A stretch of 55,811 bases of DNA, counting the filler, from Jimgerdemannia flammicorona (lineage: Eukaryota): NCBI GenBank assembly GCA_003990765.1. It is 3 parts of 3 records of this genome, joined end to end, with 100 filler letters (N's around TTAATTAATTAA, not from the genome) between each part and the next. Parts side by side here need not be neighbours in the genome. Positions count along the whole stretch, not along the records: positions 18,639 to 37,176 come from RBNJ01002186.1; 2 more parts are not named here. The stretch is one strand, 5' to 3'. Within the stretch, counting starts at the first letter, position 1, and each line of letters begins with the position of its first letter. The position numbers and the translations under genes are program-made. Shown piece after piece: positions 7,641-50,360 of this stretch. The notes under the pieces were generated by a model, which was given only the letters and a program-made list of their open reading frames with translations, was not told where the DNA came from and searched no databases.

Positions 7641-8297
7641 AACCTCTATTTTAAAATCATTTGACTTTGATTTAAAACCACATTTTTATATGTTTAGCCC
7701 TTATTAAAACTATATAATATTAGTATTTCAATATAATAAAAATATAATTATAAAATATAAATAAATTGAAATAATTTTTTCTCTCTGCATTTGAACTACA
7801 GATAGCTAGAGCCTTGGAGACCCTTACTCAATGCTTAAGTAGACTAGTGAACTGTTTTAATTATTTTCAGCACAATTTTGCCTATAATTATCAGAAATGA
7901 TATTATTTATACTATAAGACCATTTGACCTCAGTAAATGATCTCTATTTAAGACTGTAGTTTTGGTATAAAGAGAAAATAAGAAAGATACTATACTACTA
8001 TAATGGTTAAAAAGAAAGAAGATATTAATAATTTAAAAGAAAATATTGTTTTTCACTAATTGATTTTAAAAGAGATATATTAAAATAATATAAAAAAGTA
8101 TTAAGACTTATATAAAGTTAATTAAAAGACTATAAAAGAGATTTTAAGTACTTCAGTTTGAGAAATATCAATCTACTTCTAGTTTATCTTAATTTGATAT
8201 AATAATTATATTTGAAATTTTTAAAGATTATTTAACTTCATCTCTATCTTTTGATAGAATATTTCTTTATAAGTTAAAATATAATATATATATATAT

Positions 8298-15009: not shown

Positions 15010-15390
15010 ATCCAAGCTTTCAAATCCTTCAGTTTTTCTTATATCTTAAGTCAGTTTGGAGACCTCTTATAGCTGGGGAGCCTTGACTTCTATGAAGATT
15101 GTTTATATAATCTTTTGTCCTTTATACATAGATATAGTATTATTCTATACTACTATTATTTAAGATGATCTTGATTTTGCTTATATATCTAGGGTCAATT
15201 ATTCTTCTTTTTATAGTATTCTTTGTCTAGCAAGTCTAGACCTTGAGACTAATTAGATATAAGTTTCTTTGAATAACTGTATAGCTAGTCCTATTGTTTC
15301 AGAATTGATAGATTTATTTTTAAGGTTATAAAGATCATATCTCACAACTTACTAGTGAGCTTTAATTAGAGATTTAGTCTTGAGATGTAG
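15010..15390 (-). pseudogene. dut: dUTPase domain relic in Gypsy family-1 pol
   Basis: Degenerate motifs in the correct order: (G)YDLY; GLAIQLFKETYI*LVSRSRLA; IIDPRYISKIKIIL; KGQKII; RKTEGFES. These correspond to GYDL, RSGLA, GVIDxxYxGEI, RIAQ and RGxxGFGS with G>A/C>T changes. Confidence 0.7.
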
Positions 15391-18711: not shown

Positions 18712-21700
18712 CTATCCAATCCCCACTGGGGGGCCCCTCCCTACTCCCTCATGAATGAAGATCACTCTTTCACCCACTACCCCCACTCTCCCCCCACTTT
18801 GTCCACAGATTTTCTCCACTAAGCGGTGCCTCCGACCACCCCGCATTCCCCAACCCAGCCACCAGCCGGTTAAGGTATCTTCCATAAGCCTATGCCATCA
18901 CAGCAGCCTGTCCCCCAAGCTCTGCCTCCACCCATCCTCAAAAACAAACAGCCAATGACTGGCCAACCCCACCCAAATTGCCAAAGCCCAACCTAAAGTA
19001 AGCCACTCCTTCCCTACCCCCCCTACCAATCTAACCCGCAAGTCCTCCCATCGCCCCTGTACCTCATCACTCCTACCCCGCACCCCTAAGCGATCCCCAA
19101 TTGCCTGCCAAAACTCCCCCAACACCTCACACTCTCCTAGCCAATGTTCTGGCATCTGTACATAACCCCCCTCCTGCCCTACATTATGGCACTCCTCACA
19201 GTCGAAACAACCCCCTACAACCAGGTGCCCTGAGCAAAAATTGAGCATAACGTTCCTCTGCAGCATGCGCCACCAGACCACCCAGTACTTTGGTGGCAGC
19301 CATGCTCTCACTGCAGCACTCCAGGTCCAAACACTACGCCAGTTCCACTCTTCGCCAATTCCAACTCCTTGCCAACCGCTAGGCCACAGATCCTGGCCTG
19401 GTCCCCTTTGGCATTCCATTCCATCACCAATGTCGAACTCAACTAAAGGAGCACCACCCAGCAGTATGCAGTCCCATCTCCACATCGCCGGGTCCCAATC
19501 CTCCTCACCCTCATTTCCCTGCCAACGAATACCAATGCGGTGCACTCCTTCTGCAATTCCCCACCAAAATCCTTTATATCGTAGTTGGGCAGTGTTCTGA
19601 AGCCCAACCAAGGAGAGGAGATCACCAGTTGAGCCCCTTGGAGATGCCTGCCTCTCCCATAACTTCTGTAATAGAGGAACCCATCCACCTCCTCTCAACT
19701 CCACCGTCTGCTTCAGCCACCATGCTCTCAAGCAGTGTAACCATTTTGGGAAGTCAACTAGCCCAAGACCGCCTCTTGCCACTGGTAGGGACAAGGTCTC
19801 CCAACTAATCTGACTCTGCCTGCCAGCCCAAATCCATCCCTTCGCCGACTTCATCAATCTCTTCACTACCCAGGTTGGGAAGTCCAGATGATATGCCAGG
19901 TACCATAGCTTAGGCAGCCAGTAGACATTCAAAATCGAGACCCGCCCTGCCAGAGAAAAATGTCTACCCCCCCAACTTCGCAGAGCCTCCTCCCAGATTC
20001 CAATCCTCTGCTCCCACCAAAGCCTGGGCAGAACTGACCCATAAACTGACAAGTAGATACCTAAGTACCGCACTGCTTCACCAGTGGGGACAATTGTTCC
20101 TATAACCTCTCCTCCCACCAGGCCGTTACCAAGTACCATCATCTCACACTTATGCCAATTCAGCTTAGCTCCAGAATGCTCCTCATACCACTCCACAGTC
20201 CTCTTGAGCTCCTCAACATCAGCAATCGAACCCAAGTCCACCACCATGTCATCAGCAAAGGCCTCAACTTTCCATCCTATACCAAAGACAGAGAGCCCCA
20301 CTATCCTCTGCCTAATCCAGTCCATAAGGGGTTCCAGGGAAAGAGCATACAAAATGGGGGACAATGGATCCCCCTGGGGCACTCCCCTTCCCAAGGGGAA
20401 TGCTACCCCTCTATGTCCATTACACATGAGTGCAGCCCTACTCCCTTCCAGCAGGCTGACCATTGTCGACTGGAATTGATGCGGTACCCCTATTCTATCC
20501 AAGACTTTCTCCAGCCAGACTCTCCGCACCCGGTCATAAGCCTTCTCCTGGTCCAAGAAAACTAGATGCCCATCCAGTCCACATGCCCTCACCCCTTCAA
20601 TGATGCCATGCACCCAGGCAGTACCATCCCTTATGAGCCGACCACCTACAAATCCCCTCTGCTCAACACCCATGACTTGCTGGGCCACCTTCTGTAGTCT
20701 TGCCACCACCACCTTAGTTACCAACTTTCTGTCCATATCTAGCAGCATTATCGGCCACCAGTTCTTCCAATCCTCCTGCCTTCCTTTGTTTTTGTAGAGT
20801 AGCGTCACCAGCCCAAGGTCCTGTTCCCCCACCCATCTTCCTGTCTGTAGAATAAGGTCACACAATGCTGTCATCTCTCCCATCACCCCTGGGACTTCAA
20901 CCATTCACTTCCAAAAGTCCCAGGGCAGCCCATCCTCCCCAGGTGCTGTACTGGACGTTGTCGCGGCAAGAACCTGGTGGATCTCATCCTCCTGTACAGG
21001 CATCACCAGGTCCCCTAGCCCTTCAACTTGTGGTGGGTGCCAATCCTCCAATGTTCGTTCAATTGTAGCGGCATCCACCCCACCCTCCTCCTCACTCCAC
21101 AATCCACTCCATCTCTCCTTCAGCGATCCAAGAATGTCCTGTACACCATGCACCAGTACACCCTCAGAGTCCAATACCCCTTCCCACCGTTGCTGGACCC
21201 GCCTCGCCCTAAGGGCCCTCGTAAGAAGCTTGGAAGGCCTCTCTCCTTCCTCCAGATCCTGCCAACGAAGCTGTGCTGCCAAACTCTGTACCCTTGTCTC
21301 TTCCTCCTCCCGCAACACCTGTTGAAGTTCCCCAACTTCCATTTTCGCCCTCAATAATCTCCAATCTTCTTCCCCCTCCAACATCGTCAGCCTTGCCCAC
21401 TCTTCCAGGAGCCCCGTCAATCTAGCAGAGGCCCAGCGCACTCTTTGTTTTCGCCATTTCCCTGCCTCCTTGCCAGCCTCCTTCCAGTAAATCCTGGCCA
21501 TTTCCTTCATCCTCATCCACCGAGTCCCAACTGCAGCCCCTTCCTGCCTCCAGTTCTCCACCCTCCACTGAATGTCTTTAGCCCACTCATCCCACCGGGT
21601 CTTGTCATCTAACAATGAGGAATTGAGGCGCCAATGTCCAGGCCCATCCCCACTTCCCCCAAAGCACCCCTGTCCCAAAAGCCCCCAGTGATCCGACCAT

Positions 21701-22368
21701 GGACACCATTCCACCTCCAATGATTTCCAAACATCTCGTCTCCAGCAGCAGGCTGTCAAAATCCAGTCGATTCTAGTCCCCAGACCCCCTGCCCAATGAG
21801 TATAGACCCTCCTACTCCCCCAGCACTCCCTTCCAGCATCCAATAGCGCACTCAGCCTCTCTACTTCCTCCCACGCCACCAGCCCTCCACTCCTGCTCTC
21901 AGCACCACGTCCTCCATCTGATCTATCTAGCAGTATATCCCTAACCATATTGAAATCTCCCCCTAGCACATCCACTCCGGCCTCCACAATTAATCCACTC
22001 TCCTGTAAGCCTTTCACCCAATCAACCCTCTCACTCCGTACTGCAGGGCAGTAGCAGAAACCAACTGTAACTGACTCCCAGCCTGCCTGAATCCACTCTC
22101 CCCAGACTAGTCTTTCCCCCCAGCACTGCACATTCTGTATCTCCCCTTTGCCATTCCTAACCAAGATCCCAACCTTGCCCTTCCAAATCGCCGCACCTCC
22201 CCATTCCTTCGTCCATTCTAGCCTATCAAAATCATCTTCGCACTGGACATCCTGCAAGAGGAAGAGATCGGCCTCCAATCCCCTCATCCAAGTAAAAATA
22301 TTCCTATGTCGAGAAGCACCCCTCAACCCATTTACATTCAAAGAGAAAATGTTGGTTGTACTGTTCAT
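18712..22368 (-). pseudogene. LINE ORF2 (APE endonuclease - reverse transcriptase - zf-RVT/CCHC), 1218 codons with two premature TGA stops
   Basis: APE: SLNVNGLR, GGDFN, RIDWIL, SDH. RT: LDQEKAYDRV, QGDPLSPILY, FADD, YLG. C-terminal CEEC...EHWLGEC. The in-frame TGAs at 20905 and 18898 are sense codons in copy 2 (WKKMLDIP; LARWEGLMED). Confidence 0.9.
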
Positions 22369-22401
22369 ATTGATGATATATGTGAAGTCATCAATCTTCC
22401 T

Positions 22402-24425
22402 CTACTGCTCCATACTCATCTCCTCCTGCGCCCTGTCCAAATTAAGTTCTGCAGCCACCTCCTCCTCTTCAGCCCTCTGAGCCTCCAATCCAGCCAGCAG
22501 TTCATTCATCTCGCTATCGGCCTTCTCCTCAAACTCCTCTCGGTATTCGATACATGCTTCCTGCCAGAGCTGTAGTCCATGTTGCTTGTTCCAGCAGTAT
22601 TCAGCCCTTTCTCCAGCAACAACCGCCATCTCCTCCTCCCTCTCCTTATCCACCTCATATCCCTCCTCCTCCAGGTACACCGCAAGAATTTCTGCCTTCA
22701 ATGCCTTCATTACGCCATCCCCCTGCAGTATTTCCGCCCAATGCTCATCACTCATCACTCGCAAGTCTACTTCCCCCAACTCTTCCGCCGCCAGGTTATT
22801 CATCATCCGGCACATCCAAAGCAAGTTCCCCACCTCTTTCCCCCCTGGAGTCGCCGGCCTCCCTCCATCCAACATTGTGGTATCAGCTCCAGCACTCGCA
22901 GACTCATCCCATACTTCCGGGACATCCACCAGTTCCTCCTCGCCATCCGCCGCCACCTGTCCCCCATACGCCACCTCTGGAACTCCAATTGTACCTTCTG
23001 GGTCCCTCGCATTGGCACATCTTCCACCACCCTATTCCGGGAAGCCGGGCCATGCCTGATGAGAGGGGTGGGGGTAGGGGAGCCCACCCAGTCCTCCTCC
23101 CACACCTCTAGTGTACCATCTGTATACAGGTCCTTCTCAGCCTTCTTCCTATCTTCCCCTGCCTCCTTCTTGTCCTTCCCCTCCCCCTCGCTGGCCCAGA
23201 CACTTGCTCCAGTTCCCCCTGTGCTCTTCACCTTGCTCGCCTCCCCCAGTGGTCCGCTACCCATCTTGACCAGCAACTTCTGCTGCCTCTTACGCCCCTG
23301 AGCCCTTTCCCACTGCTCCTTGGTCACTCGAATCCGCTTTCCATCCACCACCTCCAAGTGTGTCACCTCTTCAAAAGCCTCCCAAGCCTTCGCTTGCCTC
23401 TCCACAGCACCCCCCAGCTCCTCAAGCACTTCCAGTAGATCTTCCTCTTCCTCCTCACTCCCCTTCACCCTTGTCACCTTGCACAGGATCGCTCCCCAGA
23501 CCATCACCAAAGGCCAATCCCTTGCCTTCCCAGTGGCTTCCTTCCCAGCCAGCCTAATCCTCACATCCACGTCACCAGTCCTGAGCAAGGTCCCTTCCCA
23601 GACCCTGAACCCGATATCTACTACCTCGCCAAATTCCGCCATGAAATCCTCAACTCTCTTCCTTGTCTCCATTGCCGTCACCGTCGGCACTTCCTTCACC
23701 AGCAGTTGGACCACCCTGGGGTCCCACTTCAGGCACTGCGCCATCGGAACACATATCTCCCCAACCACCAATCCAACCTTCAGTGCCTCCTCCAGTGGTG
23801 CCGCCTCCTCAAAACCCACCTCCACTCCTTCCAGCCCCTTCAAAAACTTCACAGATGCCACACCTGCCACCTGCTTAGCAATGAGCCCCAGCACCATTTT
23901 CGCCATCACCGCCAGGCCCCGGAAGCATAGTGTGACCGTGAATGCCGAAATTGATTTCTTGAGTAACGGGGCCACCACCAGACCCATCACACCATCAGCC
24001 AAGTCCCCTTGTCTCCTAAGCCCCAGCCGCTCAGCCTCGCCATCAGCCGTCACATCTGGATTTTTTTCCAGATTGACAGTCCCAATACCATCAGCAGTCA
24101 CACTCCCCCCAGCCACTACTCCCACAGCTCCACCACCCCCCCTTCCAAGGGCCGCACCCCACGGCACCGTCGCCTTCTCGGTCTCCTTGCCCTTCATCAG
24201 CCAGCCCTCCAGCCCCGATGCCTGCTGTCTCCCCTTCACCATCTCTGCGAAGCTTGCCCTCCCAGATCTTGATCCTCCACCTCCTCCTCCACCCCTTCCA
24301 CGTCCACCCGCCAGCAGGCCCCTCATACCTCCCCCCAGTCCTGGACCCCTCCCCACCTGCTGCCAGTTGAAAGCGCTTGGGCCACCCTGCCCAGTACACC
24401 CCTCAGGTTGCCTGTCGGTTGCCAT
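22402..24425 (-). pseudogene. LINE ORF1 (Gly-rich N-terminus, central RRM-like region, acidic coiled-coil C-terminus) with a 1-nt frameshift
   Basis: ORFs 24425-22803 and 22974-22402 join if one base is restored near 22990. Copy 1 reads CAA TT GGA GTT, copy 2 reads CAC TTT GGA GTT and copy 3 reads TGA TTT GGA GTG. Confidence 0.8.
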
Positions 24426-24689
24426 GTTGTTAGTCTCTTTTTACCGAAAACGATGTCGAAAGTGCCTTTCAAAGGTTGTGTAATCTGAGTGGTATGAGCA
24501 AAAGGAGTCGCCAAGCCTTTACCTGTTGATATATACATACTTGTAAATCTCACTTATGCTTATACTTTTACTTATGCTTATAATCTGGAGCTTTTCTCAC
24601 TGTACTCTACTCCTCTTACACAACTTTCATATATTTCTTTATCTCTCTCACTCTTATTCCTCAGATTGTAAATAACATATAATTTATTA

Positions 24690-25295
24690 GAGATTTTGAA
24701 ATGAATTTTGAAAGACATTTCAAAGAGATTCCAAAAGAGCTTCTGAAAGAGATTTTGAAGAGATCCAAAAGAACTTCTGAAAGATATTATAGTTTTTGAA
24801 CATTTAATATATTAAAAGCTTACTTTTATCTCTAGTTCTTTGCTTTACCTTCTTCTTTGCTTTGTCTCATCCTTTACTTCATCTTGTCATTTACTTTATC
24901 TCATTTTTTACTTCACCTCATCCTTTACTTTGCTTCACTTAATTCACTGCTAAATTGAGAGTATATAGATATAGCTAACTGATTAATAAGTATTTACAAA
25001 GTTCTTTAGATTTTTGATCTGAAGTTCAATACTTCTTAGCTTGCTATCCCAAAGCTTAGCACTTTAAAATATCTAACTTACCAACACTCAGCCTGCCAAG
25101 CTTTCCAACATCCAGGTTGCTAAGCTCACTAACTTCCAGCTCACTGACCCTCAGCTTTTCAATCTTTAGCTTAATTACTAACTCACTGCTATATAGCTTG
25201 CTCTGTTAGATCTCTAGCTTTTTAACTACTAGCTTACTATTACATAGCTTACTCTCCTAGATCCCCAGCTTCCTGACTGCCAGCTCACTGCTGGT
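24690..25295. repeat. Short degenerate tandem repeats in the Gypsy leader
   Basis: ~12-bp GAGATTTTGAAA-like units at 24690-24785, TTTACTTCATCT-like units at 24840-24935 and CAGCTCACTG-like units at 25070-25295. Confidence 0.55.
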
Positions 25296-25345
25296 CTACA
25301 AGCACTAGGTTCACCCACCAGATTCTAATAATATAGCTCAAAAAA

Positions 25346-25348
<3 letters not shown>

Positions 25349-25380
<32 letters not shown>

Positions 25381-25760
25381 CAATGTCATAAAAATTTTCT
25401 AATAATATTCAAAAAATATATATCCTCCAGCTTCTAAGCCTAGGCCAGAGTGTAAATCTTACTACAATTGATATTTTTGCTATTGAGTTTGCCTAAGCAC
25501 TAACTAGGAGTATTGCTAAACTAATTTTCCCAATAGACTTCAAGAAGACAAAGTCTTTAGAAAAAGCTTTGAGGGTGGGGCTGATAGTTGGGGAGATAAC
25601 AGTTCCAATGAGATGGTGCCTGCAGTGAGACCCAAGAGTGGTTCAACTTCTAGTGAGAGGAGTATCTATAGTAACTACTTTGAGATATAGAGGAGAGTAG
25701 AGAAGGTTATAGTAGAGTATAATAATATTGTAGTTATCAGATTCTGGGTCACCTCAATCT
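25349..25760 (-). mobile_element. Poly(A)-tailed retroinsertion interrupting the Gypsy-1 5' LTR; far boundary uncertain
   Basis: A T29 run starts 25 nt into the LTR-like sequence and is followed by unrelated, more GC-rich sequence. Confidence 0.45.
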
Positions 25761-26599
25761 TCTCTAGTCTCTGCCAAAATCATCTCAGTCATTTGCTTCA
25801 AGATCAGTCTCAGAACTATCTTAATGATTACTACAGTACTGCTATATCTATAGAACTCATAGAATGTATTTTTATTATCTTTGGTACTATTTTCTTAGTA
25901 TATTTTCTTGTTCATGAGACTTATTATTATATGGATATAGTCCATAAGTCTACCACTTTCATACATGGCTGTAACAACAATATTATATATATCTGGAAGA
26001 TCTCTTATAAGTATTATAACCTTATTATCATTATCAATATAATCTACAAATATACTGAGAAAATTCACTTAATTTATCAGATTGTCAACACAACTGTCAT
26101 ATTCATAGATACTCTTCTTATATTTTATTTATATGTATATTAAATAGCTGAGATTTCAGATGGAATTGATTTGATTTAGATATTTATATATGATGATTGC
26201 ATAGGATCTCTCATACTTTGTTAGTTATTATAGTGTGTATTATAAGTTTTATTTGAGAATTCAACAATATAAATATAATCTTACATAATTCTCAGTAATT
26301 ATTTATAATATCATAATCTTGAATCAGTACTTATGGCTTTATATATTCTACTAAACTATATTTATTAAGAAGATTCATTATATATAATATCTAGATCATA
26401 TAATCTTTTCTATCAAAGATTAGGATAGATCTTTTGGATGTGTTTATGCTTAGAACTGGAACTGTATTTCTCATATCTATTGTGATTATATCTGTAGAAA
26501 TACTCATAATTAGTATATCTATATTATTAGGCTAATTATTTAATATTTCTAGTATTATATATATTAAAGAAATATTTATTTGCTATAGCTGCTTAGTAC

Positions 26600-28176
26600 T
26601 AGTAGAGCTCATAATCTTTGATATAAAAGAGGTAATTTTATTAAAGTTATATAGATCATATATTTCATACATTACTGATGAATAACATAAAACTAATAAA
26701 ATAGAGTAATTATATATTGATTTATCAAGTTGCCATCCCAATAGATACAATAAGCTCTTTACTACTAGTAAACACTCTTTCAACTAGTACACTTGTTGTA
26801 GAAATAGCTAGATAATCTTAAGCTATATCTTAAATTAGAAAAGTCTATCTGATATTTCTATAAATTTAAAATAAAGAATTTTAGAGCTAAAAACTTTAAA
26901 AATAATTATGGAAATTTTTATTTCCAATTAATCTAATATACCAATACTCTTTAATAAGACTACTTAATCAATAGACAAACATATTGTAAGCTTATCTATT
27001 AAAGATTCCCTTTTTCTTTTTTTACTATAAAGATACTATATAATAAATTATTTATATAGTTATTTAAACAAAAGTTAGAGTTCAGTAAAGGTATGTAGTT
27101 TTCCCAATATATATTAGTAATTGATTACTCTGCCTTCTCAATAAATTCTTTTTTTTAGCTTTAATCTTTACAATATTGAAGCTTTAATTATAGATCTAAA
27201 ACTGATCAGATATTCAAATTATAATCAAAATAATAAAACTTCTTATTTTAATTTATAAAAAGTAATACTTCACTCACTAGTACTAATAGAAAATACAGAA
27301 GTAACTATTTTTGAATAATATTTTTAATAGCTTTCTTTTATCTTGAGGAGATATATCATCATTTTCTAATAAGTTTAATAGGTCTTCAAGTTGATTAATT
27401 AAAAGATTGTACATCTGAATTGTAGAATATATTATTGGAAACTTTTGCTAAACAACTTCTTTTATATATTCATTAAATTTCTAGAGTAAAATAAAGAGTA
27501 AAAGTATAACAAAAAAATCAAAGATACTAATATATAAATACTTCTCTACTCACCTCTAAAACTTTAACCACTTCTCTCAATTTTGCCCACTCATTCTCTT
27601 TAATTATCATATCTCACATTTCTTTATCTATAGTAGTAATAGAATCTAGTATCCAAATTATATATATTTAAATAAGTTAATATTAATTAATAAGTCTAAT
27701 ATTATTTTATAATATTATTATTAATAATCAATATAATATAGCAAGTATTAGTACTTATTAAATTATTATAAATGTTAAGTTCTAATATATACTACTATCC
27801 AAATAAGTTCTTTTGAATTGAGATTAATTACTTTATATTATATAATAAGTTTTTTCACTATAGTAGTAATGATTGAATTGTAATAATTAATTTGCATAAC
27901 TTTGAAATAGTATTAGAGCTATTTCTAGTTTCACTTTAATTACCAAATAGTTGTGTGAGATAATCTTAAGCAGTAAGTTTCAGAACATAGGTCTGATACT
28001 ATAAGATGATATCATTTATCTCATATACTTTATATAGTATTGATAGTTAGAGAAGAGATACTTCAGAGCTCCTTTTTCTGCTATCATACTGATTACAAAG
28101 TTTTAGTAAACAATCTTTCAAGTCTTCTTCTCATAACTTATATCTTTTCTACCTTGGGATAATTTGCTATATCTAC
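26600..28176 (-). mobile_element. hAT transposase relic, split by the Gypsy-2 insertion and continuing at 36939-37175
   Basis: Dimerisation motif DYLAISTTSVLVERVFTSSK at ~26755-26815 (consensus DYLAIPATSxxSERxFS). ENEWAKLREVVKVLE followed by a GTGAGT intron at ~27555-27600. ISKLCK and LIWD..NLT relics at 27770-27910. Confidence 0.7.
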
Positions 28177-29710
28177 TGTCACATAGTGATCACTGAGTCC
28201 TTTAAATATACCAGATTCTCTTTAAGGTGTATCTCTTAGACTAACTCAAGTTTATTATAAGTAAGTTCTTATTGGAGTGCCTTCTCAAGGTATTATAGTC
28301 CTCAAACTTCTTATCTTTAAACTGTCTTGTTATCTCTTAGATTGCTTGCAAGGAAGTGTGTATATTATACTGAGTTGACTGACTTTATTTTAAAGGAAAT
28401 AAGAGGAGTATTTATACAAAATATAATTCAATGATTGCTAAGATATAAAGCTAAATATGAATTTCAATAACTAAAATAAAATGCCAGGATAGGAAAAACT
28501 GATAAGTTCCAGAGTTGGTACTGATGGTTATACAGGTTCAGGATGCTGGTATAATTCAGTATCACATCAGAATGCTAGTGCTGGAACAATCCTGCATCAC
28601 CTCAGAATGCCATTGCTAGCATTATTCAGTATAACTAAGGGACTTAGAGCAGAATATTCAAGACCATAGGGGCTTCATCCTCATCAGAGGTCAGGATATC
28701 TTCGAAGAAGATGAGATCCATGAATGTCTCATCTGTCTCATTGTTATCATCACATAGGTTATGCAGGATGACATCATTGCCAATGATGTCATCATATTCA
28801 GTGGCAGCAGTGGGAACAAGGAGATCTGGAGCTCTCTAGTCTATAAGGTTCTCTTCCACAAAATAAGGAACAAATGTGGGGTCTTGGGGAGGTCTAACCT
28901 GGATGCTTAGGCCTTGGAATACTGAGTTCAATTCTTGCAGGAATTGGTCTGGGTTGTCCTGAAGGATGGGATGCCAGAAGTCTTCTACTTCATCACTATT
29001 GAGGGTGATAGTAGACTGGGCTTCTGTAGCCACTCTGGCTTCTAGTACATTGATACAGCGGGATAATAGGTCTCTGAAATCTGAGACTCTAACATACTCC
29101 AAGTTGGGGATCAACCATGGTGTATGTCTGAAGATCTGATAGATCTTCTTAGCTATTCTTGTTTTATATATATCTATGAGAGTAGTATCTTGTAGCTCTT
29201 GAGTGCTGGCCTGTGGGAACTCCTGGCAGAGAAGATTTTCTATTTCATACTCTTGCCATATTTGGAGGCATTTGGTAGCAATGGTGATCCTTGTTTCCAT
29301 TTTATGGCAGTAGAGGATATAATGATAAGGGTGACCAGTATTTAGGTTAACACTAGGAGTCCTTCTTGAGCAGGTCCTCATGACTCTTCTGATGTCTTGG
29401 AATATTCTTTCTTCAACTGAGATGCCTTGGTAGTTCCTTGACCTTGAGGTTTGGCAAGCAGCAAGCATTTTGTTTGTGATAAGTCTTTGAGTTATTTTGG
29501 GATTAGTGGGTCTTATTGGTTGCTGCTACTGCAGTTCCTTGATCCTTCCTTTATATTCCTCAAGATACTCATACTGTGATCACAATGACTCACAGTTAGT
29601 TATCATTACTTATCTCATATGCTATATAATCTTCTTGTGCTCCGATCTGGTGGCTTGTAAGGAAAGACTGTCTCCTGTGCTGATGTCATCATTCTGGGGT
29701 CACCATTATA
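28177..29710 (-). repeat. 3' LTR of Gypsy-2
   Basis: Direct repeat of 35410-36938, abutted by the PPT. Confidence 0.93.
28644..29468 (-). pseudogene. LTR-encoded ORF of unknown function (~274 aa, one premature TAG in this copy)
   Basis: A 210-aa ORF continues past TAG 28836, which is TGG in the other LTR (DLIDWRAPELL), to an acidic tail ending DEAPMVLNILL*. Confidence 0.7.
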
Positions 29711-32700
29711 TCTTCCTTCTGAATAAGAATCTTCTTAAGCATTCTTATTCATTAGTTCAGTTCTGAAAAATTTACTGATCCCATAACCTCTGGCAAGGGG
29801 TCGAAAAGTGGTATTTATGGGCTGGCATCTTTTCTTTGTATTTCAGCATATTGGTGAAGGGTCACTCCCTTCATATATGTAGAGCAAGGGCCTGATTCTG
29901 ATATTGACCAATCAGTTGATGATTCAAACTCCTCTGGCTTTGAAAGTCTCACAGATAAGTAGTTGCTGGTGCCATATCTCTTAGAGAATGGTCCAGACAG
30001 ATAGTCTGCTGGTCATGGGACATGTTGTTATGATTTGCAGACTAGAACCTCATGGGCGGTCATTACATTTTACTTCTCTTATATAGGTTCATGGTGCTTC
30101 TTGAGTCTGTTCCTATGTACTATAGTAGGCAGTATGGTCCCTGAGATTTTTCTAAGCCAGAAGGTAGTTTTCTTGATATCTTACATATAGAAGGGTCCTT
30201 TTCATTTGGGCTCCAGTTTTTGTGACCATGAGGCTTCTACTATATTTCGATATAGTAAAACCTTTTCTCTAATTTGGATGGGTTCTAAGGTCTTGTAGTT
30301 CTTTTCTACATTCTTCCTTAATGCTTATAACTTGATGATGTAATCTTCAGCCTTCTTCCTGATTTGGTGTAGTCTCTGGATTTCCACATTGATCCATCTC
30401 CAAGTTACGTCTAGATTTGTAGCTGAGGTTTCATCAGAATCTTCTTCTCTGAAGAGCAGCTCTCTTGGGGTAAAGTATGTGCTCTGTAACTATATATCTT
30501 GTAGGATAGAGAGGGCAGTTGGGAGATAGTTATCTCAATTCTCATATGTCTCTGAGATCTTTGCTACAATGTTCTTGAGGGTCTTATTGGTTCTCTCTGT
30601 CTGTCCATTTCCTTGAGGGTGATATGCAGTGGTCTTAATGTGCTGGATCTTATATTTCTGATATATTATCTCATGGAATCCATTGACAAATTCTGTGCTG
30701 CAGTCTGTTGTTATTTGCTTTGGTGTCTTGTAGTAGCAGATGATTTCTTGGTACAGGAAGTCAGCTAAAGAGAGAGCATTGGCTTCTTGTAATGCTTCTA
30801 CTTCTATCCATTTAGTAAAGAGGTCTACAATAACTATAATATAGCAGTTTCCTGATAGTGTGCCTGGTAGTGGCCCAATGATATCTATTGTGATGTGGTG
30901 GAAGGGGATAGACCGAATTCTTGATGACTCGGGTGCCTGGTCTTACTGATCTTGTTTCTGTTTTTGGCACTTGTCATATCTTTTGACAAATTGGTACAGG
31001 TCTTCTTCCATCTTGGGCCACCACATGGTTCTTCTTGCCTTATCATATGTGTTGATTCCTCCTAGGTGTCCTTGCTCATGTACTTCCTTCATTACTTGAT
31101 ACTTCTTGTATTCAGGTATTACTAGCTTTTCTCTTTTTCTGAGTATAGTGTTGTCTAGTTCAAACTGTTTCCAAGTCCAGTTGATGATAGTGATTGTCCA
31201 GGGATCAAGGTGGTTGGACATCTTCGACTGTCCAAGGTAGCTGATTAATCTATAGTATAACTCCTTATTCATGTTGAGTAATCTTGATGGGGGTGTTTCA
31301 GGGTATCCTTAAGAGTGCATCAGCATTGGTATTGGTTTTTTCTAAGCAGTGCTTGACAGTACAGTCATACTCTTGCAGCCTGTAGATCTATCTGGTATAT
31401 ATTTCTTTGGGGTTCAGAGTGTGGAATAGCCAGGCAAGAGTAGAATGGTCCATTTGAATGGTGAAGTATTTCCTAGCTAGGTAGTAGTGGAACTTGTCTA
31501 CTACTCAGACTACTACTAAGCATTCAAGCTTGCATAACTTGTAGTTCTGTTATGCTCTATAGGTACCTCAGCTTACATAGGAGATGACATATTTATGTCC
31601 ATCTTTCTTCTAAGCTAGGACTGCTCCAAGTCCAATAGCACTTGCATCTGTCTGCAGGATGAATACTAGGTTCCAATCTGGTCTTCTGAGGATAGGTGCT
31701 GGGGTCAATCTGGTCTTGAGTTTATTTAAAGTTTCTTGGCATTTCTTGGTCCATTTGAATTTGATTTCCTTCTTCAGTAGCTCATAGATAAGTGCTGTAA
31801 TGTTGGAGTATTCTTTGATGAATCTTCTGTAGTAGCTGGTCAGTCCAAGGAAGATATGGACTTCTGTAGTTGTTCTGGGTCTCAGGTAGGCTGCAACAGT
31901 CTCAATCTTCATGGGGTCTGTGTGGATTCTAGTCTAATTGATGAGGTGTCCTAGATAGGCAACTTTCTGGACTGCAAACTTGTATTTCTTAGGCTTGATA
32001 TAGAGGCCATGCTCCTTGAGCTTCTTGAGGGCTAGCTGTATATAATTGACATGTTCCCATGCAGTATTGCTGAAGATGATCACATCATCAATATAGACAA
32101 AAAGCCATTTTCCAATCTCATTGCTGAAGACTCTATTCATCATTCGCTGGAAACTTGCTGGGGCATTGTACATTCCAAATGGCATTCACAGGGAGATATA
32201 GGTGGCATCAGGTGTGATGAAGGCTGATTTCTCACTAACATCTTAAGTGAGACCAATCTGATAGAAGCCTGAAAACAGATCCAAGATGGTGTAGTATTTG
32301 GCTTCACTTCTAAGAATGGTAAGGATTTTTTGAATATTTGGCAAGGGCTGCCTATCCTTCTTGGGATGGTATTGAGCTTCCTGTAATCAATGTAGAGTCT
32401 TGGTACAAACTCTCTAAGCTTGCTTCCTTTCTTTGGGGTGAGGACAATGGGTAAAGCCCAGGGACTGATAGCTTGCTTGATAATTCTGGCTTCTTCCATT
32501 TCCTTGAGTTCTGCTTGCAGCCATTCTCTGTAGGCAGGTGGTATGGGTCTGGCTTTCTGGTAGATGGGCTTGGTATTACCAGTGTCAACTTTGTGGTAGT
32601 ACTTGGGTTCTTGGTTGTGGATATCCCTGAAGTCTGTAGCAAGTACTCCTTCATTCTGGTGTAAGATCTTGAGAAGTTGTTCTTCCAAAGGAAAGTTTTC

Positions 32701-32779
32701 TCCAATAGTATATGTGTGCTTGTTCTGGTCCTTATCTTTCTTATGCTCAAGTTCAGTAATCTTGGTAGTGGCATAGGCT

Positions 32780-33165
32780 CCTCTTCTAGTAGATCCAAAG
32801 CCTTGTTCTCCTCTCTTGGTCTTGATGAGTTTGATGGCTTCAGTGATCTTGGGTTTCTTGATTTCATAGATCAGCATCTGGCCAATCCTGTTATGCTTCT
32901 TGACTTCGAATGGGGTGGTGGGGTTGTGATTCCTGACTATGAGGAAGATCTTGCCAGTGTAATCAGGGTCAATTACTCCTCCTTCAACTGAGATTTCACT
33001 TTTGGCCAGACTGCTCCTGGTCTTGATAATTCTGGCATAGTTCTCTGGCAGCTTGACTTCAATTCCAGTGCCAAGTAGAGTGGTGGTCTGTGGTTCAAGG
33101 ATAGCATCTTGAATGCTGGCAAGGTCCATTCCTATAGCTCCTTCAGTCTTGTATTCTGGGATCTT
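32780..33165 (-). CDS. dut: dUTPase domain within Gypsy-2 pol
   Basis: All five trimeric dUTPase motifs are present: GMDL, RSSLA, GGVIDPDYTGKI, RIGQ, RGEQGFGST. Lies directly upstream of RT. Confidence 0.92.
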
Positions 33166-35409
33166 GGCTTTGGGATAGAACTTCTTGACTTTGAGGGTGA
33201 TATCTGGTTCTTATTCCTCCTCATTATCACTATCAGCCTAAAGCTCTGGGGGCTGGTCATCTTCTTCAGCTTTTCTTTTTGCTTCGGCAGCTTCTTGCTT
33301 GTGTTTCTGTTGGCAGATTTTCCTGACTTCATGGATACAGGACCAGCAGTCATTCAGGTGTTCAGAGCAGTACATCCTGGTATCATGGGGACATCTTCCT
33401 TGAGGGGCATAGCTATCAATGATCTTATTATACTACTGCTCATCTGTGAGCTTGGGTGTCTTGTTCTTGTTCTTATTCACCAAGTGTATGAAGACTTCTG
33501 TGTCCTCTTCATCTCCTTCCTTTATGTCTGGTAGGACTCCTTTATAGATATTGATAGAGACTCATACCTTTCTCTCTCTATAGTTGATCTACATTTTCTG
33601 GGCATTGAGGTCAATGATGGCCTTGGCCTTATGAAGCCATTGGTTGCCAATGAGGATGTTATAGTTGGTGGTGCTTGTAACAATCATGTCTACTGGGATG
33701 GTAGCTCCTCTTATCTTGATGGAGACTTCTCAGATTTTGCCAAGGGGGGTATCTCATGTACCATCTGCTGTAACATAGACTATCTTGGTGGACTCTTCAA
33801 TTTCCCAGCCTAGGCAGTCAATTGCATTCTTGCTTATAAGGCATCCTCCAGCACTGGTATCAATGATGGCATCAAAGATACAGTCTTCAATCTGGTATGG
33901 GGTATAGGCTGATGTCTTGTGCTAGTCTTCATATTCTTCACCTGAGTTTTTGGATTCTTCTTGTGCATTGTGAGCTTCTACAATCTTGTACTCTTGATTC
34001 TTGGCAGTAGTTACAAGTCCTACTCTCAACTGCTGTCTGAAGGCAGGGACTTTGGCTAGCTGTCCAAAAGTAGCATTGACCTTCTATTCCTTGAGGTCCT
34101 TGTAGATATCATACTGGTGGATCTTGGTCTTGTGCAGCTTCTATTCCTTCTTGCTTTCACTTTCTCCTGAGACTGGAGTAGTGCCTTCAATGATTTGACA
34201 GGCAGCTTCATCTAACTCCATGTCTTGATCAATCTCCTTAGGTTGAGTCTTACTTTGAATAGTGACAGCTGGGGTCTTCTTTGGTCTTCCAACTGGCTTG
34301 CTATTGCTCTTCTTGTCATAGGGCTTGGACCAGGTTCTGGTACCTTCAGTAGCAGGGTAGAATTCAAGCTCTTTGTAGTATTCTTCATCATCAGTATCAC
34401 CAATCTCCTCGATGACTACTGTATTGGTTTGTTCTCTGGTTCTGCCAGCATTGCTTGGTTGGGCTTTGCATCTTGTTTTGGTCATGCGATTCTTTGCATA
34501 GTGGCCTTCTTCTCTACATCTAAAGCATGTGATATTGCATTCTTCTATAATAGCTGCAAATCTCTGCACTGGTCTCCTGTTGGCACTTCAGACTTCTCTA
34601 ACAACATCACTAAGGTATGCAGTCATCTCAGTGAACTGCTTGGTGAGTTCCTCCACCGGGTCAGCTTTAGCTGTCTTGGGGGTAAGTGGAGATGGTTGTC
34701 TGTTTATAACTGTGGTAGGTATAATACTAGTTGGCTTTGATGGCTCCATCTTGATGCTAGTTATTTTCTCTATTGAGTGTTCAGCAGGGTGTCTGGCAGT
34801 CTAATATCTCTGTGCAAAGACCACTTTCTGATCAAGAGTCAGTGCAGCTGGGGTAGACCAGATTGCTAGGGCAATTTCAGGGTGAACTCTTTTGAGGAAG
34901 GTTGAATCTGCTATTTGTTCCTTGAGGACATAATCATAGCCAGCCAAGACAATCTGGTGGCAGATTCAGGTATAGAATGAGTTGGAATTTTCACTAAGTC
35001 CCTAGCAGATAGTATTAAGTTGATTCTTAAGAGCTTGCTTGATCTCTTTAGTATAGTATGTTATTCTGAGGAAGGCCTTCATGTTGGCAAGTTTGGCTAC
35101 ACCATTATTAGCAATAGTAGCTGTATTGAACTTGTCTCTGGCAGGTCCTCTGAGGCTGACTAGTAGAAGAACCAATTGTGCATCTATACCAAGGGCTTGT
35201 ACAGTGGCAAATTGTTCAAAGTCTTCAATGAAGGTCAGGATTGACTCTTCAGTAGTATATCTATAGAATGTGGGGAGACATATTTCTATCTTATCTTGAA
35301 TTCTTGCAGGGGTGACTCTTGTAGTCAGAGTAGTTGTTGTGGGGGTTTTTCATTTTTTAGCTTGAAAGTGAGAGATTTGTCTTAAATCACCAGCCAATGG
35401 GTACCAAGT

Positions 35410-36938
35410 TGTCACGTAGTGGTTGCTGAGTCCTTCAAATATGCCAGATTCTCTTCAAGATATATCTCTTAGACTAACTCAAGTTTGTTATAAGCAAGTT
35501 CTTATTGGAGTACCTTCCCAAGGTCTTATAGTCCTCAAACTTCTTATCTTTAAACTGTCTTGTTATCTCTTAGATTGCTTACAAGGAACTGTGTATATTG
35601 CACTGAGTTGACTGACTTTATTTCAGAGGAAATAAGAGGAGTATTTATACAAAATATAATTCAATGATTGCTAAGATATAAAGCTAAATATAAATTTCAA
35701 TAACTAAAATAAAATGCCAGAATAGGAAAAACTGATAAGTTCCAGAGTTGGTACTGATGGTTATACAGATTCAGAATGCTGGTATAATTCAGTATCACAT
35801 CAGAATGCCAGTGCTGGAACAATCCTGCATCACCTCAGAATGCCATTGCTGGCATTATTCAGTATAACCAAGGAACTTAGAGTAGAATGTTCAAGACCAT
35901 AGGGGCTTCATCCTCATCAGAGGTCAGGATGTCTTTGAAGGAGATGAGATCCATGAATGTCTCATCTATCTCATCATCATCATTGCATAGATCACACAGG
36001 ATGACATTATCACTGATGACATCATCACATTTGGTGGTGGTGGTGGGAACAAGGAGTTCTGGAGCTCTCCAGTCTATGAGGTCCTTTTTCACAAAATAAG
36101 AAACAAATGTGGAGTCTTGGGGAGGTCTAACCTAGATGCTTGGGCCTTAGAATACTGAGATCAATTCTTGCAGAAATTGGTCTGGGTTGTCCTGAAGAAT
36201 GGGATACCAGAAGTCTTCTACTTCATCACTATTGAGGGTGATAGTGGACTGGGCTTCTGTAGCCACCCTGGCTTCTAGTACATTGATATGGTGGGATGAC
36301 AGATCTCTGAAATCTGAGACTCTAATATACTCCAAGTTGGGGATCAATGGTGCATATCTGAAGATCTGATGGATTTTCTTAGCTGTCCTTGTTTTGTATA
36401 TATTCATGGGAGTGGTATCTTGTAGCTCTTGAGTGCTGGCCTGTGGGAACTCCCAGCAGAGAGGTTTCCTATTTTGTACTCCTGCTACATTTGGAGGCAT
36501 TCAGTAGCAATGGTGATCCTTATTTCCATTTTATGGTGGTAGAGGATATAATGATAAGGGTTACCAGTATCCAGGTTGACACTAGGAGTCCTTCTTGAGC
36601 AGGTCCTTATGGCTCTTCTGATGTCTTGGAATATCCTTTCTTTGACTGAGATATCTTGGTGGTTCCTTGATCTTGAGGTTTGGTGAGCAGTAGGTATTTT
36701 ATTTATGGTAAGTCTTTGAGCTATTTTGGGATTGGTGGGTCTTATTGGTTGCTACTACTACAGTTCCTTGATTCTTCTTTTATATTCCTCAAGATACTCA
36801 TACTGTGGTCACAATGACTCACAGTTGGTTATTATTGCTCATCTTGTATACCGTATGATTTTCTTGTGCTCCGATCTGGTGGCTTGTAAGAAAGACTATC
36901 TCTTATGCTGATGTCATCATTCTAGAGTCACTGTTACA
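35410..36938 (-). repeat. 5' LTR of Gypsy-2, containing the second copy of the LTR ORF (~35877-36696)
   Basis: Direct repeat of 28177-29710. ORF pieces 36147-36500 and 35877-36092 match the 3' LTR ORF. Confidence 0.93.
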
Positions 36939-37276
36939 CTACTCAAGATAGTGGAAGAGAGGCAATAGTGATGATTTATCCCTTTATCAGTATCAGATTA
37001 GTACTTTTTCTACTTTTTTATAGTTTCTGGTATCTCTAACTATATCTGGGGTATACCTGTTTTGATATAGTACTTTCTTTCTCTTTGCTATCATCAATAA
37101 GATATTATCTCAGTATATTACAGACTATATGAAGTTGGCTGACTCAAGTGCTAGTATAAGTTATCTATAGGTTGTTNNNNNNNNNNNNNNNNNNNNNNNN
37201 NNNNNNNNNNNNNNNNNNNNTTAATTAATTAANNNNNNNNNNNNNNNNNNNNNNNNNNNNNNNNNNNNNNNNNNNN

Positions 37277-40200
37277 TACAGTATCACCTCCCACTATCTT
37301 ATCTCCATAGAAGAGCCTCTTCTCATATCATTATAAATAAAGACTATCTTTTTACCCACCACTCCAACTTTCCCCTCACTCTGCCCATATATTTTCTCCA
37401 CCAAGTGGCACTGCTGTCCTCCCTGCAGACCCCATCCCAGCCACCAGCCTGTCAATATGTCCTCCATCAACCCCTCCCACCTTGCCAACTGCTCCCCCAA
37501 ACTCAAACTCTTTCTTTCCTCAAATACAAACAGCCAGTGACCTGCCAGTCCCACCCATACTGCTAACACCCAACCCAAAGTCAGTCACTCCTTCCCCACC
37601 CCTCCCACTAATCTGTCTCTCAGATCCTTCCATCAACCCTGCTTACCATCCCCCCTATATACAGCACCCAATCTATTCCCAACTACTAACCAGAAATCAC
37701 CAAGTACCTTGTACTCCCCCAGCCAATGTTCTGACATCTGCATAATTCCCTGTCCTGACCCACATTATAGCACTCCTTACAGTCAAAGTTCCCCCCCTCC
37801 ACAAGGTGGTCTGAGTGAAAGTTGAGCATAACATTCCTCCACAGCATGCACTACCAAACTACCCAGTACTTGAGTGGCAATCATTATCTCACCTCTGTAC
37901 TCTAGGTCCAGACTCTATTCCAGTCCCACTTCTTACTAATTCCCACCATCTGCCAGCTGCTTGGCCATACATTCTGTCCCATTCCCCTCTGGTACTCTAC
38001 TCTATCACCAATATCAAAGTCTATAAGAAGAGTACCCCTCAACAACACTCAATTCCATATCCACATTACTGGGCCCCAAGGCACCTCTCCCTCATCCCTC
38101 TGTTAGTGAATTCTAATATGGTGAGCCCCATCTACTACTCCTCACCAGAAGCTCTTAAATCTCATACATCTACTATTTTAAAGCTCTACCAAGAATAATA
38201 AATCCCCAGTAGTTCCTCTCAGTAAGCACCTTATCTCTCAGATCTTCTTCATCAGAGGAACTCAGCTACCACTCCTTAGTTCCACTGCTCTCTTCAACCA
38301 CTATGCTCTCAGACAATGCAACCTCTTTGAGAAGTCAACCAGCCAATCTTTGGCCAGCTTCAATAGCCTCTTCACCACCTAGGCTGGAAAGTCCAGATAG
38401 TATGCCAAATACTACATCTTCAGTAGTCAGTAGATATTCAAAATCATAATGCACCCTGTCAAGGAAAGGTGGTAGTCTCTCCAATCTCAAGGACCTCCCC
38501 CCAGATAGCCACTTATCACTCTTACCAAGATTGTAACAGAACTGACCCATATATGGAGATATAGATGCCTAAATATCTCACCACCACTCTAGTAGGGATA
38601 ATTGTTCCAATAACATCCCCTTCCACCAGACCATCATCTAACACCATTGTTTTGTACTTGTACTAGTTAAGTTTAGCCCCAGAGTGTACCTTATATCACT
38701 TTACTGTTTTCTGGAGTTCCTCAACATTAGCAATCAACCCCAGACCAATCACTATATTATCTGCAAAGACTCCCACCTTCCATACAATGCTGAATATAGA
38801 GAGCCCTGCAATCTTCTACCTAATCCTATTCATCAAAGGCTCCAAGAACAGTACATATAAGATAGGAGACAGTAGGTCCCCCTGAGGAATACTCCTCTCT
38901 AGAGAGAATACTACCCCCCTATGCTTATTACATATGAGCACTGCTCTACTCCCTTTCAGTAGGCTGACTATTGCTACTTAGAACTACTGAGAGATACCAA
39001 TCCTGTTCAGAACCTTCACCAGCCAGACTTGCTGTACCCAGTCATATGCTTTCTTCTGATCTAAGAAGACCAATCTCCCATTCAGTCCACAGGCTTAAGC
39101 CTCTTCAATAACACTATGTACCCAGGCCATACCATCTCTAATAAGCCAGTCCCTTATAAAACCCTGCTGCTCCTCACCCAAAACTTACTGAGCCACCTTC
39201 TATAGCTATATCACCACCATATTAGTGACCAGCTTCCTGTCTATGTCCAGTAGTATGATGGGCCACCAGTTTCTCTAGTCCTCCCTCCTACCCTTACCAT
39301 TAAAGAGCAGAACCACTAGCCCCAGATCCTGCTCCCCCCCCTATCTCTTGGACTATAGTACTAAGTCACAAAGTGCCATCAACTCCCCCATCACTTCAGG
39401 TATATCTAACATCTTCTTCCAAAAGTCCCAGGGCAGACCATCTTCTCCTGGTGCCATGCCCAGTATAGTCATAACAAGAATCTGGCAAATTTTCTCTACC
39501 TGAACTGATACTACCAAACTGTCCAGCCCATCAACCTATAGTGGGTGTCATTCCTCCAAAGCACATTCTATGATAGCAGCATCAGCCCCACCCTCCTTCT
39601 CACTCCACAAACTACTCCACCTCTCCTTCAATAAGCCCAGAATATCTTATGAACCATGCACCAGTAGAACACCAGAATCAAGAACCCCTTCCCATTGCTA
39701 CTTCACTCATCTTGCCTGAAGAGTCCTTGAAAGATATCTAGAGGTCCTCTCTTCTTCCTCCAGCCCCTTCCAGTGTAGTCTTACAGCCAGACCCTACACT
39801 GTCATCTCCTCCTCCTTCCTCAACATCTGTTGTAACTCCACAACCTCCAGCTTCACTCTTATCACTCTCCAGTCCTCTACCCTCTCCAGGGCCAAGAGAC
39901 CAGCCCAGTCCTCTAGAAGTTCAGCCAATTTAGCAGAAGCCCAGGCCATCCTCCTCCTCCTCTGTCTTCCTGTCACCTTACTAGCTACACTCCAGTAAAC
40001 CCTAGCAGCCTCCTTCAACCTCACCTACCAGACTCCAACCATAGCCCCCTTCTGTACCCAGCCCTCTATTCACTGCTGAATGTCCTCCATCTACTTGTCC
40101 CACAAGCCCTTCTCAGCCAACAAAGGGGAATTGAGACACCAATATCCAGGTCCATCTCCACTCCCTCCAAAATGTCTCTGCCCCAATAGTCTCCAATGAT

Positions 40201-49871: not shown

Positions 49872-50360
49872 AATTTTTTTATTTTTTTATTTTTTTATAT
49901 TTTTATTTTTATAATCCTATAAACTTCTATATTTATTACTATATTAATATATACTCATATAATATACAATAATCTAACCCTCTACTCAATCTCTCTAAGA
50001 GACCTCTCTCTTCTTTCCCACCCTGACTTCTTTATAATAAAATACTATCTAACTATTAATAACTATAACCCTCTTATTACTTTTCTCACATATTCTCTCT
50101 ACTAGATAGTAATGGTGACTCCTTTAGAAACCCCACCCCCTCTATCAGTCAGACATAATGTCTTCTACCTACTTCTTCCACCATACCATTCACTTCTTTA
50201 ATCTTATATATTTTCTATTCTCAAATATATATAGCTAATATCTAGCCAACCTCACTTATACTGCCAAAGTCCACCTACTAGTGAGCCACTTATCACTAAT
50301 ACACCTTACTAACTATAGCTTCAAGTCTTCTCAATAATCTTTCTATTTATTCTCTCTTAA
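49872..50360 (-). mobile_element. 3' end fragment of the same LINE family, highly degenerate
   Basis: An interrupted T-rich tail at 49872-49910 is followed by C-rich sequence resembling 18720-19150. Confidence 0.5.

What the first reader, a model, noticed from the sequence alone, without database searches (positions are those of the whole stretch)
28644..29468. A ~274-aa protein encoded entirely inside the LTR of a Gypsy element
Seen: both 1.5-kb LTRs hold the same sense-strand ORF, and their premature stops are complementary. The 3' LTR TAG is TGG in the 5' LTR, and the 5' LTR TAA after SVF is CAA in the 3' LTR, so the ancestor had one open frame ending in an acidic tail. It resembles neither env nor a chromodomain. 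Known: LTR-resident genes occur in retroviruses (MMTV sag; nef overlapping U3) but are unusual for fungal Gypsy. Inference: an accessory factor such as a transactivator or anti-silencing protein, which would also spread with solo LTRs.
Basis: partly seen in the sequence, partly recalled or inferred. Interest (0 to 1): 0.72.

Follow-up and report, generated by a model that had tools for sequence, protein, structure and literature searches.

The report
Protein gene inside fungal retrotransposon LTR
A fungal jumping gene carries, inside the terminal repeats that normally hold only control signals, a real and conserved gene for a protein of no known family; both copies here are dead, but related elements keep it intact and have swapped it between lineages.

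Summary
The gene is real; both window copies are dead. The frame (28644-29468, minus strand) lies wholly inside the 1,534-bp 3' LTR of a dUTPase-bearing Ty3/Gypsy element in a fungus.

Intact natural copies of 270-290 aa exist, as do three further families (28-63% identity). Only this frame lacks fixed stops, and it shows purifying selection between families (A×B transversion ratio 0.41).

The gene sits inside the LTR in three families. In a chromovirus family it sits just before the 3' LTR. A TATA-like box precedes it in all four. Its tree conflicts with the pol tree, so the cassette was exchanged between lineages.

No Pfam, PHROG, PDB or fold match was found, and no membrane segment, so it is not env. 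Best guess (0.4): a trans-acting nuclear regulator made from its own promoter. Function and expression are untested.

This scan noted the same family earlier on other pieces of this genome. Verdict: new variant of retrotransposon accessory genes, placed like MMTV sag.

The parts
28644..29468 (-). Accessory ORF in the 3' LTR: 274 codons, one premature stop at codon 211 (dead copy)
28177..29710 (-). 3' LTR, 1,534 bp; ends CA, and its start is a decayed form of the TG seen in other copies
29550..29555 (-). TATA-like box about 85 nt before the ORF start (putative promoter of the ORF)
   Evidence: promoter function inferred
28384..28416 (-). Second TATA-like box (28410-28416) and AATAAA (28384-28389) downstream of the ORF: putative genomic promoter and poly(A) signal, which would place the ORF in U3
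   Evidence: inferred
29711..29720 (-). Polypurine tract abutting the 3' LTR
30100..31299 (-). Integrase relic (H2C2 and rve), no chromodomain found
31340..32799 (-). Reverse transcriptase and RNase H relic
   Evidence: RVT_1 and RT_RNaseH on 31340-32299; for the N-terminal part
32790..33198 (-). dUTPase domain between protease and RT
   Evidence: PF00692, E 3e-26
33600..33999 (-). Aspartic protease relic
   Evidence: read from the translation by motif; the Pfam scan used the wrong frame, so not confirmed by profile
34400..35331 (-). gag relic, with a CCHC-like knuckle just downstream
   Evidence: zf-CCHC E 0.0012, just under the cut-off
35398..35409 (-). Primer-binding-site-like motif after the 5' LTR
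35410..36938 (-). 5' LTR, 1,529 bp, TG...CA
35877..36697 (-). Second, more decayed copy of the ORF in the 5' LTR (no start codon, 3 stops, frameshift, codon deletion)
28173..28176 (.). 4-bp target-site duplication (other copy at 36939-36942)

Best explanation
SHOWN: a conserved protein-coding accessory gene ('ORF3') of dUTPase-bearing fungal Gypsy elements. In this family (A) and two others (B, D) it lies 3' of the polypurine tract, so reverse transcription copies it into both LTRs and it stays behind in solo LTRs. In a chromovirus family (C) it lies just 5' of the tract, once per element. The cassette has moved between pol lineages. INFERRED: it is transcribed from its own TATA promoter 60-90 nt upstream, so any LTR, solo ones included, can be a stand-alone expression unit that ends at the LTR's poly(A) signal. 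INFERRED, weakest step: the protein has an Arg-rich N-terminal arm, a helical core of about 200 aa and an acidic tail with short conserved hydrophobic motifs. It most likely acts in the nucleus in trans, raising transcription of the element or shielding it from the host's methylation-type silencing, as retroviral Tas or Tat do. The confidence given is for this functional step; that it is a selected gene is about 0.95.
For: Selection: the ratio of transversions at 0-fold to 4-fold sites is 0.41 [0.26-0.71] for A×B, 0.59 [0.43-0.84] for A×C and 0.55 [0.41-0.80] for B×C. The net A×B value after removing within-family decay is 0.31 [0.14-0.71]. DNA likeness between the A and B LTRs is confined to the first 210 or so codons. 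Promoter: a TATA-like site lies 50-115 nt before the ATG in 68 of 72 A, 8 of 9 B, 16 of 16 C and 14 of 14 D copies; chance per family is 0.01-0.11. Position: 9 of 20 family-C LTR loci have the ORF directly upstream, and the other 11 lack it and are followed by a PBS. Complete A and D elements carry the ORF in both LTRs. Anatomy: no transmembrane stretch, net charge +4 to +6 in residues 1-45 and -13 to -27 in the tail in all four families. Tail motifs recur in A, B and C. Context: repeats in the window are almost free of CpG, and the two LTRs differ by 148 transitions and 5 transversions, so the host mutates or silences these elements heavily. Precedent: foamy viruses and MMTV express accessory genes from internal promoters (PMC12789967, passages), and the maize Grande aORF is nuclear with its own promoter (PMC7264820).
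Against: No homologue of known function and no fold match, so nothing ties the protein to DNA, chromatin or the nucleus. The selection ratios for A×D (0.93), C×D (0.80) and within A (0.48) have intervals that include 1. One antisense frame is also below 1 for A×C and B×C, as expected when third codon positions coincide. The TATA evidence is one site per family. The D variant was added to the pattern after I saw it, and A and B are not independent. The snakehead retrovirus 3'ORF, once proposed as a Tat, proved largely dispensable for transcription (PMC12193657, abstract), so position alone does not show transactivation.
Confidence: 0.4

Rival explanations
1. The protein works in the cytoplasm or in the particle. 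The acidic tail motifs dock on host trafficking adaptors or on Gag, and help particle assembly, movement along hyphae or nuclear entry (Nef- or Vpr-like).
For: A DLIxF motif occurs in the tails of families A and C, and PxxLNF in A, B and C, inside tails that otherwise do not align. That DLIxF resembles clathrin-box or adaptor motifs is recalled, not from a call.
Against: Family D has neither motif and B lacks DLIxF. A separate promoter suits a regulator made apart from Gag.
Confidence: 0.2
2. It is an RNA-binding factor: a Rev-like exporter of unspliced genomic RNA or a suppressor of RNA interference.
For: An Arg/Lys-rich N-terminal arm in all four families, 7-9 basic residues in the first 45.
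Against: The core is net acidic (-6 to -14). No RNA-binding family or fold was found.
Confidence: 0.17
3. It is a competition or copy-control factor: it restricts rival elements, limits its own family, or biases which nuclei are transmitted. LTR placement doubles its dose and leaves it active in solo LTRs.
For: The cassette moves between unrelated pol lineages, as a module useful on its own would. Solo LTRs retain it.
Against: The family is very abundant (1,169 exact matches to its PBS 12-mer against 13 for the control), which does not suggest self-limitation. No direct evidence.
Confidence: 0.13
4. It is not a selected protein gene: the open frame is a chance or RNA-level feature of a high-copy LTR.
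For: Nearly all DNA-picked copies are broken (29 of 30 lack a full frame). No known homologue exists.
Against: No fixed stop in this frame only, and low 0-fold/4-fold ratios. ATG, frame and protein are conserved across four families whose LTR DNA no longer aligns. Intact relatives occur in independent metagenomes.
Confidence: 0.04

Closest known systems
MMTV sag (superantigen ORF in U3 of a betaretrovirus LTR)
   Same: The whole ORF lies inside U3, and one sag mRNA comes from a separate promoter near the 3' LTR (PMC12789967, passages).
   Different: Sag is a type II membrane protein of a retrovirus with env. This protein has no hydrophobic stretch, no detectable homology, and sits in an env-less fungal retrotransposon with its TATA-like box inside the LTR.
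Foamy virus tas/bet with internal promoter
   Same: Accessory genes 3' of pol, driven by their own internal promoter (PMC12789967, passages).
   Different: No sequence or fold match. Transactivation is untested here. Here the gene lies wholly within the LTR in three families.
Sense additional ORFs between pol and the 3' LTR of plant, insect and rotifer LTR retrotransposons (aORF-3S / ORF3)
   Same: Same strand, 3' of pol, in most copies of a family; shared between diverse lineages, also in dUTPase-bearing ones (PMC7264820; PMC5408684). Family C has exactly this layout.
   Different: The described aORFs lie in the internal region, and many are env-like or enzymes. Here three of four families carry the gene inside the LTR, and the protein is an orphan without a membrane segment.
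dUTPase-bearing fungal Ty3/Gypsy elements (PosPlaTy3-5, Tmt1)
   Same: dUTPase between protease and RT (PMC2864245, passages). A figure legend there lists an 'add. ORF' of unknown function in some fungal element.
   Different: I did not see where that add. ORF lies or what it encodes (figure and supplement not read). The passages read describe no LTR-internal gene.

Membership tests
Ty3/Gypsy LTR retrotransposon (host element) | Direct LTRs with TG...CA ends, target-site duplication, PBS and PPT | tested here: met
Ty3/Gypsy LTR retrotransposon (host element) | pol order PR-RT-RH-IN | tested here: met
   RT-RH before IN by Pfam; protease by motif only
Chromovirus | Chromodomain after the integrase | tested here: not met
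   None in the window element or in family D (three frames scanned); present in family C (PF00385, E 5e-12). Decay could hide a remnant.
env / env-like ORF3 | Transmembrane anchor or hydrophobic signal segment | tested here: not met
   Highest 19-residue Kyte-Doolittle mean 0.47-0.82 in the four families
env / env-like ORF3 | Homology to a known fusion glycoprotein | tested here: inconclusive
   No Pfam, PDB or viral fold match, but the model is only middling (pLDDT 59)
Additional ORF (aORF-3S / ORF3) of LTR retrotransposons | Sense ORF 3' of pol, present in most copies, not a captured host gene | tested here: met
   no host-type or longer homologue found (the latter is weak evidence)
Additional ORF (aORF-3S / ORF3) of LTR retrotransposons | Located in the internal region between pol and the PPT | tested here: not met
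   Inside the LTR in A, B and D; met only in family C
Additional ORF (aORF-3S / ORF3) of LTR retrotransposons | Purifying selection on the protein | tested here: met
   (three of six comparisons exclude 1)
MMTV sag | ORF entirely in U3 | tested here: inconclusive
   Entirely in the LTR; the U3/R border is inferred from a downstream TATA and AATAAA, not mapped
MMTV sag | Type II membrane protein with superantigen homology | tested here: not met
Retroviral transactivators (Tas, Tat) / TE anti-silencing factors | Nuclear; binds and activates the element's own promoter or chromatin | not testable with these tools
   needs reporter, localisation and binding assays
Retroviral transactivators (Tas, Tat) / TE anti-silencing factors | Own promoter, separate from gag-pol | tested here: inconclusive
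   Conserved TATA-like site; no transcript start mapped

The most novel reading that the evidence does not exclude
Fungal Gypsy elements have evolved a mobile, self-promoting 'LTR cassette': an anti-silencing or transactivating protein of a new family, expressed from every intact LTR including solo LTRs. It acts in trans on all related elements and is traded between chromovirus and non-chromovirus lineages by LTR swapping. It would be a retrotransposon counterpart of complex-retrovirus regulatory genes and a cause of the host's genome bloat.
Probability: 0.25. Interest if true: 0.85.

Novelty: new variant of a known kind. Interest (0 to 1): 0.6.

Why it matters
LTRs of retrotransposons are treated as non-coding, and repeat masking hides genes like this one. 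A selected gene wholly inside the LTR means that solo LTRs, usually counted as dead scars, could still make a protein. Four natural arrangements (inside or outside the LTR, on different pol backbones) give a ready comparison for two open questions: how accessory genes such as sag or nef came to overlap U3, and what orphan ORF3 proteins do. If the protein counters methylation-type silencing, it would show how these elements filled a 231-Mb fungal genome.

Tried and rejected
Family and homology searches that gave nothing usable:
- Pfam: best E 0.07 in 1 of 12 members; no hit for the window frame.
- PHROGs: 1 of 20 members at E 0.09. NCBIfam: 0 of 20.
- PDB sequences: 0 at E ≤ 10.
- Longer or fused forms of 600-2000 aa: none (weak evidence).
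- IMG/VR: 52 pattern matches, none confirmed.
- ESM Atlas: best 0.76 for the window protein and 0.91 to an unnamed cluster for P0013; not taken as a lead.

The second (pLDDT 59) gave no Foldseek match at E ≤ 0.001 in PDB or BFVD. Its best VIA Z was 4.3 (rmsd 3.4, 84 aligned). The Sin3 rows at Z 3.0-3.6 are within noise for helical proteins and were not used. None of this shows that the fold is new. A homodimer prediction was not run, so oligomer state is open.

Expression: no RNA holder is listed. One run, X1, whose RNA status is only a guess, was laid. Its contigs cover both LTRs, including parts of the ORF, and little of the internal region. I draw nothing from it.

Nei-Gojobori dN/dS gave 0.25 even within family A. 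I judged this biased by transition-heavy decay and by protein-based picking, so I relied on transversion ratios and DNA-picked copies.

The ~250-bp block shared by families C and D shows no unusual RNA folding (z -0.34 and -0.56).

Locus L102 was dropped as evidence for family B's body because its ORF copy lacks the LTR start. L096 and L103 were left out of the pol tree for having under 250 aligned residues.

The direction of the move across the PPT could not be rooted.

Full report
1. The observation. On the minus strand, 28644-29468 is a 274-codon frame with an ATG, one internal stop (codon 211) and an acidic end. It lies at positions 243-1067 of a 1,534-bp repeat (28177-29710) whose partner (35410-36938) is 89.8% identical. 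A 4-bp target duplication, a purine tract before the 3' repeat and a PBS-like motif after the 5' repeat show that these are true LTRs. Between them lie decayed gag, protease (by motif only), dUTPase, RT, RNase H and integrase in Gypsy order, with no chromodomain found. The LTRs differ by 148 transitions and 5 transversions, and repeats in the window are nearly free of CpG while genic DNA is not. The damage is therefore C-to-T decay after insertion. The host is a fungus: the Velvet family scores over its cut-off at several places (that Velvet is fungal is recalled). An earlier scan note calls it Endogonales; I did not test that.

2. Is it a gene? The family is large. The DNA search scored 40 of 4,425 candidates and listed 41 matches at 83-100%. 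The PBS 12-mer occurs 1,169 times against 13 for the control. A full open frame stands in 13 of 30 copies picked by protein likeness and in 1 of 30 picked by DNA. Over the first 213 codons of 26 DNA-picked copies, no column of this frame is a stop in most copies, against 7-17 such columns in each other frame. Protein searches found only unnamed metagenome proteins: 6 of 424 candidates, 5 in the 1.8-billion library and 11 of 5,324 candidates with the wider profile. These led to three more families in the same genome: B, C and D. Core identities are A-B 63%, A-C 42%, A-D 28%, B-C 46%, B-D 30% and C-D 33%. The A and B LTRs align as DNA only over the coding core. To avoid the transition bias I counted transversions at 0-fold and 4-fold sites. 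The ratios are A×B 0.41 [0.26-0.71], A×C 0.59 [0.43-0.84] and B×C 0.55 [0.41-0.80]. For A×D (0.93), C×D (0.80) and within A (0.48) the intervals include 1, and one antisense frame mirrors the signal in A×C and B×C. The net A×B value is 0.31 [0.14-0.71]. The B set is 8 copies. I conclude that it is a selected protein gene.

3. Where it sits. Complete A elements (L107, L196) and a complete D element (L151/L152) carry the ORF in both LTRs. For B no complete element was seen, but 5'-type (L094, L096) and 3'-type (L061, L067, L071) LTRs both hold it. Family C differs. Of 20 C-LTR loci, 9 have the ORF ending directly at the purine tract, and the other 11 lack it and are followed by a PBS (two of the 11 share flanks). 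C is a chromovirus. So one gene lies on either side of the LTR border. Since the purine tract sets that border in reverse transcription (established knowledge), a shift of the tract or a capture explains this; the direction is not rooted. Among 30 family-A loci, the script classed 16 as 3' LTRs, 8 as 5' LTRs and 6 as neither. Of those 6, 4 have exact 4-bp target duplications and so are solo LTRs, one has a decayed PBS and one has mismatched flanks.

4. The cassette has been swapped. The pol tree (dUTPase, RT, RNase H, integrase; 7 elements) groups B with D, and the AU test rejects both alternatives (p < 0.001). The ORF tree (20 proteins) groups A with B and C with D, and rejects the pol grouping (p 0.004). 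B's body is 71-75% identical in DNA to D's over 1.7-5.7 kb, up to a shared purine-tract junction, after which the LTRs do not align. B's pol row rests on one decayed element (L094), backed by identities from L096 and L103, and the pol alignment was anchored on family A. The simplest reading is an exchange of the LTR and its gene between lineages (inference).

5. How it could be expressed. A TATA-like box lies 60-90 nt before the ATG in all four families. The counts are 68 of 72, 8 of 9, 16 of 16 and 14 of 14 copies, with a variant box in D that was added after inspection. Chance per family is 0.01-0.11. In A a second TATA-like box and an AATAAA follow the ORF, the usual layout near a U3/R border. 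This suggests a two-promoter LTR in which the gene is its own transcription unit. No transcript was mapped, so this is inference.

6. The protein. All four families show a basic N-terminal arm, a mildly acidic core and a strongly acidic tail, with no hydrophobic segment. The tails do not align, yet they keep short motifs: DLIxF in A and C, PxxLNF in A, B and C, neither in D. AlphaFold with 20 sequences gives a mainly helical core: pLDDT 77-93 over residues 101-160, 59 overall, and a low-confidence tail. No family, PDB sequence or fold match was found. I commit to a trans-acting nuclear regulator, activator or anti-silencing factor, at 0.4. The rivals are a trafficking or particle factor (0.2), an RNA-binding export or RNAi-suppressing factor (0.17), a competition or copy-control factor (0.13), and no protein function (0.04).

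7. What is known. Additional ORFs of LTR retrotransposons are described in the internal region, mostly between pol and the 3' LTR (PMC7264820, parts 1-2 of 3 read). Rotifer dUTPase-bearing elements share diverse ORF3s between lineages (PMC5408684, passages and Discussion). Rice ORF0 lies upstream of gag-pol (PMC3485330, passages). dUTPase between PR and RT, and an unspecified 'add. ORF', are recorded for fungal Gypsy elements (PMC2864245, passages; its figure and supplements were not read and may bear on novelty). The passages of a fungal survey that I saw mention no such gene (PMC3248453). A whole ORF in U3 is known for MMTV sag, and internal promoters for MMTV and foamy viruses (PMC12789967, passages). 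A 3'ORF once taken for a Tat was found dispensable (PMC12193657, abstract). Eight searches listed no paper that, by title, abstract start or the passages read, describes a gene wholly inside the LTR of a Gypsy element. The library lacks most subscription papers and repeat databases, so this is not proof of absence.

8. Earlier notes of this scan. The sequence look-up was blank. The word and place look-ups listed 16 notes on the same or related families in other pieces of this genome. They agree on an LTR-borne orphan gene and on its inside/outside placement, which I had found before looking. One prompted the chromodomain test. None of the 16 short notes shown mentions the pol/ORF tree conflict. 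They are not independent support.

9. Verdict. A real, selected, orphan accessory gene inside the LTR of a fungal Gypsy family, dead in this window. It is a new variant of retrotransposon accessory ORFs with a sag-like position, an apparent promoter of its own and evidence of exchange between lineages. Function is untested. Interest 0.6.

Noticed in passing
L162:1128-1376 and L151:3675-3926: A ~250-bp block, apparently non-coding, just 5' of the ORF or purine tract is 76-80% identical between chromovirus family C and family D, although their pol proteins are only 27-41% identical. It has no unusual fold. It may be a shared cis-element or a recent exchange.
   Followed up: partly
window 18898-24440 and about 37300-42950: Two related LINE copies on the minus strand: one with long endonuclease and RT frames, one decayed and CpG-free, 70-73% identical.
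   Followed up: no
window 1761-5339 and 47379-47873: Host gene pieces: a BTB-domain frame, and exons that look like a USP7/Ubp15 protease and a Brr2-like helicase (names recalled, not from a call).
   Followed up: no
window 7264-7638: Tandem array of mixed 16- and 23-nt units at the edge of the CpG-rich region.
   Followed up: no
window 8000-18000, 25000-43000, 49000-54000: Long stretches with almost no CpG alternate sharply with CpG-rich genic DNA. The LTR differences also include many C-to-T changes before A, so the decay is not limited to CpG.
   Followed up: partly
L153, L162, L197: Elements often nest in or abut each other: two D LTRs about 1.2 kb apart, a C 3' end followed by another gag-pol, and an extra A LTR about 400 bp after a 3' LTR.
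   Followed up: no
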